Below, one piece after another: positions 3,647-48,031 of a stretch of 64,000 nt of DNA. The DNA comes from a virus: IMG/VR virus record IMGVR_UViG_3300044695_003767; one strand, 5' to 3'. The notes beneath the pieces were generated by a model. That model saw nothing but the letters and a program-made list of their open reading frames with translations, had not been told where the DNA came from and did no database searches. Made by a program: the position numbers and the translations under genes. The first letter of the stretch is position 1, and every line of letters begins with the position of its first letter.

Positions 3647-3699
3647 GGTAAACAAATGTTACGAAATACTCATATTTCTTAACATTGTCAAACACCCCA

Positions 3700-3800
3700 C
3701 AAACCGAGACCTCTAGGGTGTATAAATTACGTCTCTCATACCCAGTCTGAGGGTGACTGGGGAATAGTATCACCACCATTTCCCTGATGGTCTTACTACT
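3700..3800 (+). ncRNA. structured psbA leader, PhotoRC-II-like motif
   Basis: Stems gagac/gtctc, cccagtc/gactggg and accat/atggt; loops tgagggt and ttccctg are complementary (aggg/ccct); lies directly 5' of a cyanophage psbA. Confidence 0.7.
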
Positions 3801-46588: not shown

Positions 46589-46604
46589 TGTAACATTTTA
46601 TACA
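46589..46604. promoter_or_regulatory. NtcA-type binding site
   Basis: TGTA-ACATTTTA-TACA matches the extended GTA-N8-TAC; upstream of TTGCTA(46613)...TATAAT(46637-46642). Confidence 0.65.
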
Positions 46605-46648
46605 ATCAATTGTTGCTAAATATCCCCGAAAGGGAGTATAATACTCTC

Positions 46649-46866
46649 ATCGTTCATCTGGAAATCCAGACGGAAGTAAGACAACTCGGAACGGGTCGTT
46701 CATCTATGGAGACACTCATTCTTACATGCCTACAAGCACAATTGATTGCTGGGAGAGTTAATAAACAAGACATTCCCAGACAATATAAGAATGATTTGAT
46801 ATGGGAGATTAAACAAATTTCTCCAAAAGAGTGTAAAATAGACGCAAAAGTTGACTGAAGGAACGC
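46649..46866 (+). ncRNA. tandem glutamine-riboswitch-like (glnA-motif-like) aptamers
   Basis: Unit 1: cgttc-a-tctgga/tccaga-cggaagtaag...ggaacg (46651-46693). Unit 2: cgttc-a-tctat...ataga-cgcaaaag...gaaggaacg (46697-46865). Confidence 0.7.
46706..46858 (+). CDS. 50-aa ORF nested in the second aptamer
   Basis: METLILTCLQAQLIAGRV...KQISPKECKIDAKVD*. Confidence 0.55.
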   Translation: METLILTCLQAQLIAGRVNKQDIPRQYKNDLIWEIKQISPKECKIDAKVD

Positions 46867-46897
46867 TACCTAACCTAACAGTAAAGGAGCAAACCTA

Positions 46898-47029
46898 ATG
46901 ACAACAGCAACCTATCGTGGTGTTAAATACAACGTAGAAGATCGTAAGATCAATGTTCTTCAATTGATTAAAGAACAAATTGAAAAAGAACAACGTCGTA
47001 AAGAAGCACAATTAGCAGCAATTAAATAA
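46898..47029 (+). CDS. small YRG-motif protein (DUF4278 / downstream-peptide type)
   Basis: MTTATYRGVKYNVEDR...; AAGGAG SD; absent from the ORF track. Confidence 0.8.
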   Translation: MTTATYRGVKYNVEDRKINVLQLIKEQIEKEQRRKEAQLAAIK

Positions 47030-47070: not shown

Positions 47071-47091
47071 GTCTTGAGAGAATGGTATCTT

Positions 47092-47247
47092 ATGGACACA
47101 GATAAACTAAAACTTATTGTCCGTAATTTAGAACTCTTAGTTGATTCTCTAAAAGCAGAAATATATTCTGATGTTAGGGCATATAATTTTGATGATATCA
47201 AACCAAAGGAGTTAGATTACGACGAAATTTTTGAGGATTCTGAATGA
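47092..47247 (+). CDS. small hypothetical protein (51 aa)
   Basis: MDTDKLKLIVRNLELLVDSLKAEIYSD...DYDEIFEDSE*. Confidence 0.75.
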   Translation: MDTDKLKLIVRNLELLVDSLKAEIYSDVRAYNFDDIKPKELDYDEIFEDSE

Positions 47248-47399
47248 GAAGTAAAAAAGTAATTCAATTAATTAAAGAAGCACTAAAGCAAGACTATTTG
47301 TATTCTAGTGAAGAACTTCATTTTATGAGAGAACAACTTTCTATGCTACAATTAGAAAAGCAAAATTTAAAAGAATATCGAGGATTTGGAAAGAAATGA
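47244..47399 (+). CDS. small hypothetical protein (51 aa)
   Basis: MRSKKVIQLIKEALKQDYLYSSEEL...RGFGKK*; ATGA overlaps on both sides. Confidence 0.7.
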   Translation: MRSKKVIQLIKEALKQDYLYSSEELHFMREQLSMLQLEKQNLKEYRGFGKK

Positions 47400-48031
47400 C
47401 AGTTAAACTTATTTCGGTAACTCCCGATGCAGAAAAAACAATGGCATTTATTGCACGAGTTAGCAATCCTGCGAATCAAGACAACGAAAACTATGCCAAG
47501 TTGCTTGCTTATTGCATTAAGCATAATCATTGGTCTGTTTTTGAACAGTCTTCTATGACTCTTGAGATTGAGACCAATCGTGGCATTGCGGCTCAGATTT
47601 TGCGTCATAGGTCCTTTACATATCAGGAATTTTCACAACGATATGCAGATACAAATCTGATCACCGAGAATATTCCTATTCCAGAACTTCGCAAGCAAGA
47701 TACCAAGAATCGTCAGAATTCTACGGATGATCTTGGTGACTATGTGAAGTTAAAGTTCCAATCAGAAATTGCTGAACTGTTTACCAATGCTAATAACCTC
47801 TACAAGAGGATGTTAGAAGCAGGTGTGGCAAAGGAGTGTGCAAGGTTTGTACTGCCCTTAGCGACTCCCACACGTATCTATATGACCGGTTCTTGCAGGT
47901 CATGGATACATTATATCAATCTCCGTTCGGCAAACGGAACTCAGAAAGAACATATGGACATTGCTCTGGAATGTAAGAAGGTATTCACCGAACAATTTCC
48001 AACGGTTGCAGAAGCTCTTGAGTGGATCTAA
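47396..48031 (+). CDS. thyX: flavin-dependent thymidylate synthase
   Basis: RHRSFTYQEFSQRY, HWSVFE, GVAKECAR, TQKEH. Confidence 0.96.
   Translation: MTVKLISVTPDAEKTMAFIARVSNPANQDNENYAKLLAYCIKHNHWSVFEQSSMTLEIETNRGIAAQILRHRSFTYQEFSQRYADTNLITENIPIPELRKQDTKNRQNSTDDLGDYVKLKFQSEIAELFTNANNLYKRMLEAGVAKECARFVLPLATPTRIYMTGSCRSWIHYINLRSANGTQKEHMDIALECKKVFTEQFPTVAEALEWI

What the first reader, a model, noticed from the sequence alone, without database searches (positions are those of the whole stretch)
46697..46865. A 50-codon ORF nested inside the stem-loop of the second aptamer, with inter-aptamer complementarity
Seen: in unit 1 the helix after cgttca is a short hairpin. In unit 2 the equivalent helix (tctat 46703-46707 / ataga 46838-46842) encloses ~130 nt; the ATG (46706) lies in the 5' strand and the stop (46856-46858) lies in the aptamer core. 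Also caact (46682-46686) in unit 1 is complementary to agttg (46849-46853) in unit 2, where a local hairpin would normally sit. Inference: an interlocked double aptamer in which folding and translation of the nested ORF are mutually exclusive, coupling ribosome traffic to ligand sensing.
Basis: partly seen in the sequence, partly recalled or inferred. Interest (0 to 1): 0.7.

Follow-up and report, generated by a model that had tools for sequence, protein, structure and literature searches.

The report
Gene inside nested glutamine riboswitch
A cyanophage mRNA leader carries two glutamine-sensor cores folded one inside the other, and one stem of the inner sensor closes around a real 50-codon gene, so sensing glutamine and translating that gene must compete on one RNA; I found no published description of this layout.

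Summary
The 50-codon ORF (46706-46858) is a real gene. It is intact at 49-50 codons in 117 of 121 related phage contigs, 342 IMG/VR loci encode a relative, dN/dS is about 0.23, and it is never seen outside this RNA. The helix that encloses it (UCUAU/AUAGA plus ACACUC/GAGUGU) keeps pairing through compensatory changes.

It is an 8-position helix (46679-86 with 46849-56) that covaries. The two 'units' are nested, not in series. Unit 1 carries ACGG and the AGUA half of loop E. Unit 2 carries the GAAG half and GAACG-C. The long-range pair forms only between units: Watson-Crick in 40 of 40 haplotypes from 241 loci, against 11% for the within-unit pairs. The unconstrained minimum-energy fold of the window is the nested topology.

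The outer core ends in a hairpin that sequesters the ribosome-binding site of a YRG (DUF4278-like) peptide gene, as in known glutamine ON switches. That folding and translation of the nested gene exclude each other follows from geometry. Any regulatory use of this is inferred, not shown.

This scan has met the same layout in at least 21 other genomes. I found no paper describing it, but Ames & Breaker 2011 and Ren 2015 were not readable here.

The parts
46590..46603 (+). NtcA-like box GTA-N8-TAC upstream of the promoter
   Evidence: Read from the sequence. A GTA-N8-TAC box lies within 100 nt upstream of the riboswitch in 143 of 155 distinct loci, against 8 of 155 shuffled controls. NtcA binding was not tested.
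46613..46642 (+). Promoter-like site TTGCTA-18-TATAAT; the RNA would start about 46649, 1-2 nt before the riboswitch
   Evidence: Consensus scan, 10 of 12 matches. The transcription start is inferred.
46651..46655 (+). Outer P1 5' strand, CGUUC(1), pairs with 46861-46865
   Evidence: The unconstrained minimum-energy fold pairs these strands. The assignment rests on the long-range-pair covariation. The strand itself is invariant.
46657..46670 (+). P2a, the short hairpin of the outer aptamer (UCUGG-AAAU-CCAGA)
   Evidence: Rfam alignment. In 57 of 179 related loci this loop instead holds a 59-73-codon ORF.
46671..46678 (+). Outer junction strand CGG-AAGUA. G46673 makes the long-range pair with C46866. 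AGUA is the 5' half of loop E.
   Evidence: G:C or C:G in 40 of 40 haplotypes from 241 loci, and 100% in A3 (59 GC, 7 CG). The role of this pair in glutamine-I is described in PMC6212724 and PMC6698751.
46679..46686 (+).
   Evidence: Pairs with 46849-56 at 7 of 8 positions. 74.9% paired across haplotypes against 57.7 +/- 2.4% for shuffled partners, 0 of 2000 shuffles as high. Three pairs change on both sides.
46689..46701 (+). Inner P1 hairpin: GAACG 46689-93, loop GGU 46694-96 (G46694 is the long-range partner of C46845), CGUUC 46697-701
   Evidence: Present in the minimum-energy fold. C:G in 36 of 40 haplotypes and 60 of 66 rows. The loop is 3 nt in most loci, 21 nt in some, and holds a 193-codon gene in L069.
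46703..46717 (+). P2b 5' side: basal UCUAU 46703-07 (contains A and U of the start codon), inner ACACUC 46712-17
   Evidence: Inner helix 87% paired against 22-59% in slid registers, with compensatory A-U/G-C, C-G/A-U and C-G/U-A changes. The basal stem is in the minimum-energy fold of 82 of 82 distinct sequences.
46706..46858 (+). Nested 50-codon gene (MET...KIDAKVD*), a helical-hairpin peptide with Cys8 and Cys43
   Evidence: Intact in 117 of 121 loci, 79 distinct peptides. Entropy by codon position 0.69/0.37/1.09 and dN/dS 0.23. In-frame indel in DSL-LC03. 164 protein clusters. AlphaFold2 pLDDT 88.5, helices 2-20 and 25-38. Annotated as a CDS in DSL-LC02 and S-SRM01.
46829..46842 (+). P2b 3' side: inner GAGUGU 46829-34, basal AUAGA 46838-42
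   Evidence: See P2b 5' side.
46843..46848 (+). Inner junction strand CGC-AAA; C46845 pairs with G46694
   Evidence: ACGC is the glutamine-II form of this strand (PMC6698751).
46849..46856 (+).
46857..46866 (+). GAAG (3' half of loop E), outer P1 3' strand GAACG 46861-65, and the long-range-pair nucleotide C46866
   Evidence: Matches the 3' end of the Rfam glnA consensus, GAAGGAACGC. Covariation.
46865..46890 (+). Expression platform: anti-SD GCU-CCU (46865-71) pairs with SD AAGGAG plus C (46884-90)
   Evidence: Fold at -7.2 kcal/mol. The same logic appears with another sequence (CUCUUUA/UAAGGAG) in most relatives. G46865 and C46866 are shared with the outer aptamer.
46898..47029 (+). Downstream 43-codon gene, MTTATYRGVKY..., a YRG / DUF4278-like 'downstream peptide'
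   Evidence: ORF list. Pfam DUF4278 E=0.054, below the cut-off; phrog_545 and phrog_5049. The YRG motif of riboswitch-associated peptides is described in the PMC2864571 supplement. The DUF4278/IF17 link is in PMC6212724.
47033..47063 (+). Intrinsic terminator ending the roughly 410-nt transcription unit
   Evidence: 9-pair stem followed by a T run.

Best explanation
Positions 46651-46866 form one composite glutamine sensor, not two aptamers in series.

OUTER CORE (glutamine-I type). P1 is CGUUC 46651-55 with GAACG 46861-65. It has the P2a hairpin and the junction ACGGAAGUA. Its P3 is the inter-unit helix 46679-86 / 46849-56. It also has the GAAG half of loop E and the long-range pair G46673:C46866.

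INNER CORE, sitting in the loop of that P3. It is circularly permuted: GAACG 46689-93 pairs with CGUUC 46697-701 across a 3-nt loop, followed by P2b, then ACGC with the long-range pair C46845:G46694. P2b (5 + 6 bp) closes around a real 50-codon gene.

HOW IT WORKS (inferred). Glutamine bound to the inner core brings the two P3 strands together and so helps the outer core to fold. That would give a two-ligand, steeper response. Folding of the outer core pulls G46865 and C46866 out of the hairpin that hides the SD, and this turns on translation of the YRG/DUF4278-like peptide, as in the gifB ON switch. The nested gene has no SD, and its AUG lies in the P2b stem 4 nt after the inner P1, so a folded, ligand-bound sensor should occlude its start. 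Conversely, a ribosome reading the nested gene must melt P2b, the inner junction strand and the outer P3, and at the stop codon it covers the outer P1 and the anti-SD. Folding and translation therefore exclude each other on one RNA. I infer opposite outputs: the nested gene is favoured at low glutamine or on first-pass co-transcriptional translation, and the downstream gene at high glutamine.

SHOWN: the anatomy, the coding selection, the covariation and the energetics. INFERRED: ligand binding, cooperativity, translation of the nested gene and reciprocal control.
For: The gene is real. It is intact in 117 of 121 loci, dN/dS is 0.23 with most variation at codon position 3, 342 IMG/VR loci encode a relative and the best 80 all sit in the aptamer context, and the fold is confident.

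P2b is conserved by compensatory change.

Nested topology:
(i) The inter-unit long-range pair is Watson-Crick in 40 of 40 haplotypes from 241 loci, 21 C-G and 19 G-C. The within-unit pairs are mismatched in 19 of 40. The scan's own tool gives 100% against 11%.
(ii) The pair class flips 4 times on the best tree built from the ORF alone, and well-supported branches force at least 2 flips. Both sides change together every time.
(iii) P3 covaries. Both strands shorten together, and the terminal pairs are U-A, A-U, G-C or C-G. No shuffle of partners (0 of 2000) reaches the observed pairing.
(iv) The loop-E halves are split: AGUA occurs only in unit 1 and GAAG only in unit 2.
(v) The unconstrained minimum-energy fold of the window is the nested one, and nested is more stable than side-by-side in 79 of 79 uninterrupted tandems.
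(vi) On L130 the Rfam model itself aligns the outer core with 39 nt inserted in P3.

The whole structure is 91% paired against 23-44% in slid registers, with a covariation score above all 500 shuffles.

ON-switch platform. The published mechanism and the identity of the long-range pair are in PMC6212724 and PMC6698751.
Against: A permuted inner core closed by only 3 nt next to its long-range pair has no solved precedent and may be strained.

Its partner G is absent in 4 of 40 haplotypes.

Most P3 helices keep two A.C mismatches.

P1 strands are invariant, so the assignment of P1 partners rests on the long-range pair, P3, loop E and energies, not on P1 covariation.

The energy gap in the window itself is small (-51.5 against -50.8 kcal/mol).

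The nested gene has no SD, so its translation is unproven.

A ribosome terminating 7 nt before the anti-SD could unmask the SD. That would couple the two genes rather than oppose them.

I could not read Ames & Breaker 2011 or Ren 2015, so novelty and some structural detail rest on secondary descriptions.
Confidence: 0.6

Rival explanations
1. Nested sensor with a passenger gene. The RNA folds as described and controls only the downstream YRG gene. The 50-codon gene sits in the P2b loop because that loop is one of the few places in this short intergenic region that tolerates insertions. It is translated, or not, without any regulatory link to glutamine, and the sensor works on the RNA copies that are free of ribosomes.
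For: Three different loops of the same RNA host unrelated cargo in different phages: P2a ORFs, the P2b ORF, and a GIY-YIG-like endonuclease gene in the inner P1 loop of L069. This is as expected if loops are simply permissive sites. Many relatives have short hairpins at both P2 positions and keep the sensor. The peptide looks like a folded protein, not a regulatory leader.
Against: In both P2a and P2b the start codon sits at the same offset inside the stem's 5' strand, without an SD. The ORF was never found outside the aptamer. Its last seven codons and stop codon are built from the invariant sensor core. Physical exclusion between ribosome and fold holds whatever its purpose.
Confidence: 0.25
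2. Two independent aptamers in series (an ordinary tandem, 'pseudo-cooperative' riboswitch). Each folds on its own, and the second has a long P2. The caact/agttg complementarity is at most a kissing contact.
For: The Rfam model scores unit 1 alone at 42 bits and unit 2 alone at 33-37 bits in relatives. The literature lists glutamine doublets as pseudo-cooperative tandems (PMC9481103). In the C..G class of loci the within-unit long-range pairs would also be Watson-Crick.
Against: In the G..C class, which includes the window, within-unit long-range pairs would be G.G and C.C: 19 of 40 haplotypes are mismatched, and only 11% of cells pair in A3. Unit 1 lacks GAAG and a P3, and unit 2 lacks AAGUA. 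Side-by-side folds are less stable in 79 of 79 tandems. There is no expression platform between the units; the linker is 3 nt.
Confidence: 0.08
3. The nested ORF is a regulatory leader peptide, like mgtL or a classical attenuator. Ribosome speed on it, for example at its glutamine codons, sets the RNA fold, and the peptide itself has no function.
For: The ORF lies inside a ligand-sensing leader and overlaps the structures that decide the output. Gln10, Gln12 and Gln37 are invariant among close relatives. mgtL is a precedent (PMC6460261).
Against: Selection acts at the protein level (dN/dS 0.23). The helical hairpin is confident, with two conserved cysteines. There is no run of regulatory codons, and diverged family members keep the scaffold but not the Gln positions. 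Fifty codons is long for a leader peptide.
Confidence: 0.05
4. Aptamer 2 is a dead remnant, split by the insertion of a small gene; only unit 1 is functional.
For: cmscan does not call unit 2 in the window. One relative (L255) has lost the 3' GGAACG.
Against: Both halves are invariant across hundreds of loci, while the 130 nt between them vary. The closing helix is kept by compensatory changes. The 3' half carries the elements that unit 1 lacks, and it covaries with unit 1.
Confidence: 0.02

Closest known systems
Glutamine-I riboswitch (glnA RNA motif, Rfam RF01739), e.g. the Synechocystis gifB leader (Klahn et al. 2018, PMC6212724; structure by Ren et al. 2015 as described there and in PMC6698751)
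   Same: Same P1 CGUUC/GAACG, P2 hairpin, ACGGAAGUA junction, P3, GAAG loop-E strand and G:C long-range pair next to P1. The downstream gene is of the DUF4278/YRG type. The SD-sequestering helix shares the nucleotides next to P1, which is the ON-switch logic.
   Different: Here P3 is not a local hairpin. It is a helix between two 'units' about 160 nt apart, and its loop holds a second sensor core and a protein-coding gene. The single-aptamer Rfam model sees only pieces.
Glutamine-II riboswitch (Downstream-peptide motif, RF01704; Huang et al. 2019, PMC6698751)
   Same: The inner core has CGUUCA-hairpin-ACGC and GGAACGG with the C:G form of the long-range pair. It has no loop E. It is associated with YRG peptides.
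   Different: Strand order is permuted: GGAACGG lies 5' of CGUUCA and is joined to it by 3 nt. There is no P2 helix after the G and no H-type pseudoknot. There is no Rfam hit in the window.
Tandem riboswitches: glutamine doublets listed as pseudo-cooperative (Sherlock et al. 2022, PMC9481103) and the cooperative tandem glycine riboswitch (established knowledge)
   Same: Two ligand-binding cores for the same ligand before one gene, probably giving a steeper response. As in the glycine riboswitch, the two cores contact each other and share one expression platform.
   Different: The cores are not side by side. One lies inside a helix of the other and they exchange P1 strands, which resembles engineered aptamer-in-aptamer allosteric sensors more than any natural tandem I know.
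mgtA leader with the mgtL short ORF in Salmonella (Park et al. 2010, as described in PMC6460261)
   Same: A translated ORF lies inside a ligand-sensing leader RNA, so ribosome position and RNA fold compete and together set the output.
   Different: mgtL is a 17-codon proline-rich leader peptide acting through transcription attenuation. Here the ORF is a conserved 50-residue folded protein gene enclosed by an aptamer stem, and the output is translational.
ORFs in peripheral loops of group I introns (homing endonuclease genes; established knowledge, not tested here)
   Same: A protein gene sits in a terminal loop of a functional structured RNA whose closing helix must still form. In L069 a GIY-YIG-like endonuclease gene occupies another loop of this same riboswitch.
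   Different: The host RNA is a metabolite sensor, not a ribozyme. The nested 50-codon gene is not an endonuclease and shows no sign of mobility.

Membership tests
Glutamine-I riboswitch (RF01739) | Rfam covariance model score at or above the gathering score (35 bits) | tested here: met
   42 bits for 46649-46697. That alignment uses GAACG(1) as the P1 3' strand and a degenerate P3. On L130 the same model aligns the outer core across both units at 41 bits.
Glutamine-I riboswitch (RF01739) | P1 CGUUC/GAACG, P2 hairpin and ACGGAAGUA junction | tested here: met
   Read from the sequence and the Rfam alignment.
Glutamine-I riboswitch (RF01739) | P3 helix flanked by the loop-E strands AGUA and GAA(G) | tested here: met
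   Met only in the nested reading. P3 is 46679-86 / 46849-56 and covaries. AGUA is at 46675-78 and GAAG at 46857-60.
Glutamine-I riboswitch (RF01739) | Long-range G:C pair between the junction strand and the nucleotide 3' of P1 | tested here: met
   G46673:C46866. Watson-Crick in 40 of 40 haplotypes, switching to C:G in 21. Not met within unit 1 alone, where it would be G.G.
Glutamine-I riboswitch (RF01739) | Selective binding of L-glutamine | not testable with these tools
   The binding-site nucleotides named in PMC6698751 are present in both cores.
Glutamine-I riboswitch (RF01739) | Translational ON switch upstream of a DUF4278/IF17-like gene | tested here: inconclusive
   An SD-sequestering hairpin sharing G46865/C46866 is predicted. 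The downstream peptide has the YRG motif, but Pfam DUF4278 gives only E=0.054, below the cut-off.
Glutamine-II riboswitch (RF01704) | CGUUCA-hairpin-ACGC plus GGAACGG with a C:G long-range pair | tested here: met
   Inner core: C46845:G46694, C:G in 36 of 40 haplotypes.
Glutamine-II riboswitch (RF01704) | H-type pseudoknot with a P2 helix following GGAACGG; Rfam score at or above 33 bits | tested here: not met
   GGAACGG precedes CGUUCA and is joined to it by 3 nt. There is no RF01704 hit in the window even at E<=10. Relatives give 28.8-32.8 bits, below the gathering score.
Ordinary tandem (side-by-side) riboswitch | Each aptamer is self-contained and carries all of its own conserved elements | tested here: not met
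   Within-unit long-range pairs form in 11% of cells. The loop-E halves are split between the units. The side-by-side fold is less stable in 79 of 79 tandems.
Leader-peptide (uORF) attenuators such as mgtL | A short ORF whose codon content, not its product, is under selection | tested here: not met
   dN/dS 0.23. Conserved Cys pair and confident helical hairpin. No run of regulatory codons.

The most novel reading that the evidence does not exclude
A natural aptamer-in-aptamer riboswitch. Glutamine binding to an inner, circularly permuted core closes the P3 of an outer core, giving a cooperative two-ligand switch. One RNA gives two opposite outputs: the gene enclosed by the inner core's stem is shut off when the sensor folds, and the downstream GS-regulator-like peptide is turned on. 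P2 loops of this sensor would then be a general, glutamine-gated slot in which cyanophages place small genes.
Probability: 0.35. Interest if true: 0.85.

Novelty: new variant of a known kind. Interest (0 to 1): 0.75.

Why it matters
Riboswitch aptamers are treated as compact non-coding modules, and tandem aptamers as beads on a string. Here a very common phage riboswitch breaks both assumptions, in hundreds of contigs from marine and freshwater cyanophages.

First, its two cores swap strands and nest. This is a ready-made natural design for cooperativity, and it changes how 'tandem' glutamine riboswitches should be modelled, counted and crystallised.

Second, its stems close around whole protein genes. 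Standard scans therefore miss or truncate it, and genome annotations either omit the genes or ignore the RNA around them.

If the fold gates translation of the enclosed gene, this would be a riboswitch with two opposite outputs from one RNA, linking the host's nitrogen status to phage gene choice. Together with the conserved NtcA-like box, it gives a directly testable two-layer nitrogen sensor (2-oxoglutarate and glutamine) on a roughly 410-nt phage transcript.

Tried and rejected
- phrog_504 match of the nested peptide (E=4.7e-4): rejected as uninformative. The same profile matches 10 of 14 unrelated control genomes, and in phages it finds only the nested ORFs themselves.
- Pfam: nothing for the nested peptide.
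- Foldseek against the PDB: no match better than E=5.8. The peptide's function stays unknown.
- Solved structures for the downstream peptide: only coiled-coil noise.
- RNAalifold with default scoring on 82 ORF-bearing P2b regions: returned no structure. Direct pair counts with slid controls were used instead.
- My first two parsers mis-set the P2a stem offset or were too strict and were corrected.
- MAFFT misaligned the 5' end of A3, so the outer P1 5' strand and P2a were left out of the formal pair count.
- Ames & Breaker 2011 and Ren et al. 2015 are not held.
- The 50-codon ORF upstream of the S-CREM1 riboswitch shows no resemblance by eye to the nested peptide. I did not pursue it.
- Apparent exception L069/L120 ('no unit 1'): resolved. 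Unit 1 lies about 600 nt upstream, because a gene is inserted in the linker.
Full report
WHAT IS THERE. The window is cyanophage DNA. It has a PhotoRC-II RNA at 3680-3775, and its nearest relatives are Kyanoviridae from fresh water: DSL-LC02, DSL-LC03 and S-SRM01. Between a promoter-like site (TTGCTA-18-TATAAT, 46613-42) and an intrinsic terminator (47033-56) lies a transcription unit of about 410 nt. It starts with a full-length Rfam glutamine riboswitch hit, RF01739, at 46649-46697, 42 bits against a gathering score of 35. It ends with a 43-codon gene for a peptide that begins MTTATYRGVKY. That is the YRG motif typical of peptides encoded behind glutamine riboswitches (PMC2864571 supplement) and of the DUF4278/IF17 family (PMC6212724). 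Pfam DUF4278 itself scores only E=0.054.

THE OBSERVATION. CGUUCA is followed by UCUAU (46703-07). AUAGA (46838-42) lies 130 nt downstream and is followed by CGCAAAAGUUGACUGAAGGAACGC. The ATG at 46706 is inside the 5' strand of that stem, and the TGA at 46856-58 is inside the conserved core. cmscan does not call this second unit, even at E<=10. However, S-CREM1 and P-TIM68 carry the same two halves around an ordinary short hairpin. So the window's unit 2 is that element with about 130 nt inserted in its hairpin loop.

THE ORF IS A GENE. In 117 of 121 copies the ORF is open for 49-50 codons, with 79 distinct peptides, some below 40% identity. Variation is concentrated at third codon positions (entropy 0.69, 0.37 and 1.09 for positions 1, 2 and 3). 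dN/dS over codons 4-42 is about 0.23, and DSL-LC03 has an in-frame 3-nt indel. A protein search gave 164 clusters, most of them 50 residues long. A peptide-based scan found 342 IMG/VR loci, and all of the best 80 have the ORF in the same aptamer context, always with CGTTCA-TCT-ATG. Among isolated phages only the three freshwater relatives have it, again inside the riboswitch. It is annotated as a CDS in two of them and missed in DSL-LC03. AlphaFold2 with 37 homologues gives a confident helical hairpin (pLDDT 88.5; helices 2-20 and 25-38), with invariant Cys8 and Cys43. The last residues (KIDAKVD) are encoded by the invariant RNA core and are unstructured in the model. No family or structural match gives a function.

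THE HELIX AROUND THE GENE IS KEPT. Above the basal 5 bp there is an inner 6-bp helix, ACACUC 46712-17 with GAGUGU 46829-34. Across 82 distinct sequences it is paired in 87% of cells, against 22-59% in slid registers. It shows compensatory changes A-U/G-C, C-G/A-U and C-G/U-A. The basal stem is in the minimum-energy fold of all 82.

THE TWO UNITS ARE NESTED, NOT IN SERIES. Published structures show that the junction strand after P2 makes a long-range pair with the nucleotide just 3' of P1. In glutamine-I it is ACG-G with GAACG-C, and in glutamine-II it is ACG-C with GAACG-G (PMC6212724; PMC6698751). In the window, unit 1 has ACGG but GAACG-G, and unit 2 has ACGC but GAACG-C. Within each unit the pair would be G.G or C.C; between units both pairs form.

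I parsed 241 loci, including 120 uninterrupted tandems fetched with a pattern that did not constrain these positions. They give 40 distinct haplotypes. The pair between the unit-1 junction strand and the nucleotide after unit 2's GAACG is Watson-Crick in 40 of 40 (21 C-G, 19 G-C). The within-unit alternatives are mismatched in 19 of 40. On a tree built from the nested ORF alone, the class changes 4 times on the best tree (at least 2 on well-supported branches), with both positions changing together each time.

Relatives show AGCCGACU/AGCCGACU (6 Watson-Crick pairs and 2 A.C), AGUCG/CGACU, AGUCA/UGACU, GGACGG/CCGCCC, and terminal pairs U-A, A-U, G-C or C-G. The two strands shorten together. Pairing is 74.9%, against 57.7 +/- 2.4% when partners are shuffled among haplotypes (0 of 2000 shuffles).

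Third, the two halves of loop E are split: AGUA occurs only in unit 1 and GAAG only in unit 2. Read this way, unit 1's 5' part plus unit 2's 3' part reproduce the Rfam glnA consensus exactly (CGUUCA-P2-ACGGAAGUA-P3-GAAGGAACGC). What lies in the 'loop' of P3 is a second core: GGAACGG, 3 nt, then CGUUCA-P2b-ACGC.

Fourth, energetics agree. The unconstrained minimum-energy fold of 46649-46868 is this nested structure (-51.5 kcal/mol, against -50.8 with side-by-side P1 helices enforced). In 79 of 79 distinct uninterrupted tandems the nested fold is more stable, by 3.3 kcal/mol on average, and it is the unconstrained optimum in 60 of them.

Fifth, the Rfam model is itself ambiguous. It calls unit 1 in the window and unit 2 in others at 33-37 bits. 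On L130 it calls the outer core with 39 nt inserted in P3, at 41 bits.

Finally, the scan's pair-counting tool was run on 66 distinct ORF-bearing sequences (A3), with the structure written from window coordinates. It gives 91.0% of cells paired against 23-44% in slid registers. Seven pairs change on both sides. The covariation score is 0.116 against 0.068 +/- 0.005 (0 of 500 shuffles). The outer long-range pair is 100% (59 GC, 7 CG), and the rival within-unit pairs are 11.4%.

EXPRESSION PLATFORM. G46865 (the last nucleotide of the outer P1) and C46866 (the long-range-pair nucleotide) are the first pairs of a hairpin in which GCU-CCU (46865-71) covers AAGGAGC (46884-90). The start codon is at 46898. 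Most relatives use another sequence with the same logic, CUCUUUA/UAAGGAG, beginning at the same C. This is the arrangement proposed for the gifB ON switch: ligand-induced formation of the long-range pair melts a short helix next to P1 that masks the ribosome-binding site (PMC6212724).

HOW IT PROBABLY WORKS. Shown: the anatomy above. Inferred: because the two strands of the outer P3 are held apart by the inner core and its 150-nt cargo, folding of the inner core should favour P3 and hence the outer core. That would give a two-ligand, steeper response with a single expression platform. The nested gene has no Shine-Dalgarno sequence. Its AUG lies in the P2b stem, 4 nt after the inner P1, so a folded sensor should hide it. 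A ribosome reading the gene must open P2b, the inner junction strand and the outer P3, and at the stop codon it covers the outer P1 and the anti-SD, 7 nt away. Folding and translation therefore exclude each other on a given RNA.

Whether this is used for regulation is open. One possibility is opposite outputs: nested gene at low glutamine, YRG peptide at high glutamine. Another is coupling: a terminating ribosome unmasks the SD. A third is that the gene is a tolerated passenger. Loops of this RNA are clearly permissive. In 57 of 179 parsed loci, marine as well as freshwater, the other hairpin (P2a) has a long insert. In 47 of these it encloses a 59-73-codon ORF with a signal-peptide-like start and a Cys...Cys scaffold, again with its ATG at the same offset in the stem. 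A profile comparison with the P2b peptide aligns both cysteines (E=7e-4, but probability only 26%). In L069/L120 a 193-codon GIY-YIG-like gene sits exactly in the 3-nt loop of the inner P1.

WHAT IS KNOWN. Tandem glnA RNAs have been noted since their discovery (PMC2864571) and are listed as 157 doublets forming 'pseudo-cooperative systems' (PMC9481103). Phage examples are mentioned only as annotations (PMC9964418; PMC5473149; PMC9004378). I found no description of strand-swapped or nested cores, or of protein genes inside aptamer stems. Ames & Breaker 2011 and Ren et al. 2015 could not be read, so this negative is not complete. The nearest functional precedent for a translated ORF inside a ligand-sensing leader is mgtL in the mgtA leader (PMC6460261). 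The nearest anatomical precedent is endonuclease genes in loops of group I introns (established knowledge).

EARLIER NOTES OF THIS SCAN. The same layout has been reported from at least 21 other genomes, with the same reading. I formed my reading before seeing those notes and tested each element here. The notes are not independent evidence. Notes on this genome pointed to an NtcA box. GTA-N8-TAC at 46590-603 is indeed conserved upstream of the riboswitch in 143 of 155 distinct loci, against 8 of 155 shuffled controls.

VERDICT. The interlocked-aptamer idea is supported and sharpened to a nested architecture. The translation/folding interplay is physically required but functionally untested. This is a new variant of a known riboswitch class, widespread in cyanophages, and directly testable.

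Noticed in passing
window 46590-46603: NtcA-type box GTA-N8-TAC about 60 nt upstream of the riboswitch. A box of this form lies within 100 nt upstream in 143 of 155 distinct related loci (8 of 155 in shuffles), clustered at -58 to -62, -38/-39, -70 and -19. In the window the spacing to the -10 box is 33 nt, not the canonical 22 or so.
   Followed up: partly
L029, L030, L010, L127-L146 etc. (P2a of the first hairpin): In about a third of related loci the first hairpin (P2a), short in the window, has a long insert. In most of these it encloses a 59-73-codon ORF with a hydrophobic, signal-peptide-like N-terminus and two cysteines about 37 residues apart. Its ATG sits at the same offset in the stem as in P2b. 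It is possibly a distant paralogue of the window's nested peptide (hhalign E=7e-4, probability 26%).
   Followed up: partly
L069:1579-2210 (and L120): A 193-codon ORF starting MLEMIYYTYYSYEPFGRG (GIY-YIG-like homing endonuclease by motif; not run against Pfam) is inserted exactly in the 3-nt linker between GAACGG(1) and CGUUCA(2). In that contig the outer P3 is degraded to 5 of 8 pairs.
   Followed up: partly
L255 (IMGVR_UViG_3300021963_002621): One relative keeps the nested ORF and the 5' aptamer parts but has lost the 3' GGAACG (it reads GACTAAAGAAAC). This is a possible decaying sensor with a surviving gene.
   Followed up: no
L002 (Synechococcus phage DSL-LC03, record 163522-163674): The nested ORF is present and intact (51 codons) but not annotated in the GenBank record. 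None of the three freshwater isolates has the riboswitch annotated.
   Followed up: no
window 46624-46635: A small hairpin CCCC-GAAA-GGGAG lies in the spacer between the -35 and -10 hexamers of the riboswitch promoter. Close relatives such as L014 lack it.
   Followed up: no
window 3680-3775: Full-length PhotoRC-II RNA (RF01717, 85.8 bits), a cyanophage photosynthesis-gene leader motif.
   Followed up: no
window 47074-47399 and 47396-48031: Two further small ORFs (57 and 51 codons, no Pfam match) follow the terminator. They are followed by a 211-codon ORF in the position where S-SRM01 and P-TIM68 have an annotated thymidylate synthase. The riboswitch micro-operon keeps this neighbourhood in distant cyanophages.
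   Followed up: no
L128, L130, L005: The Rfam Glutamine-II model gives sub-threshold hits (28.8-32.8 bits; gathering score 33) on single units of these tandems, overlapping Glutamine-I hits. The single-aptamer models cannot decide what these units are.
   Followed up: partly
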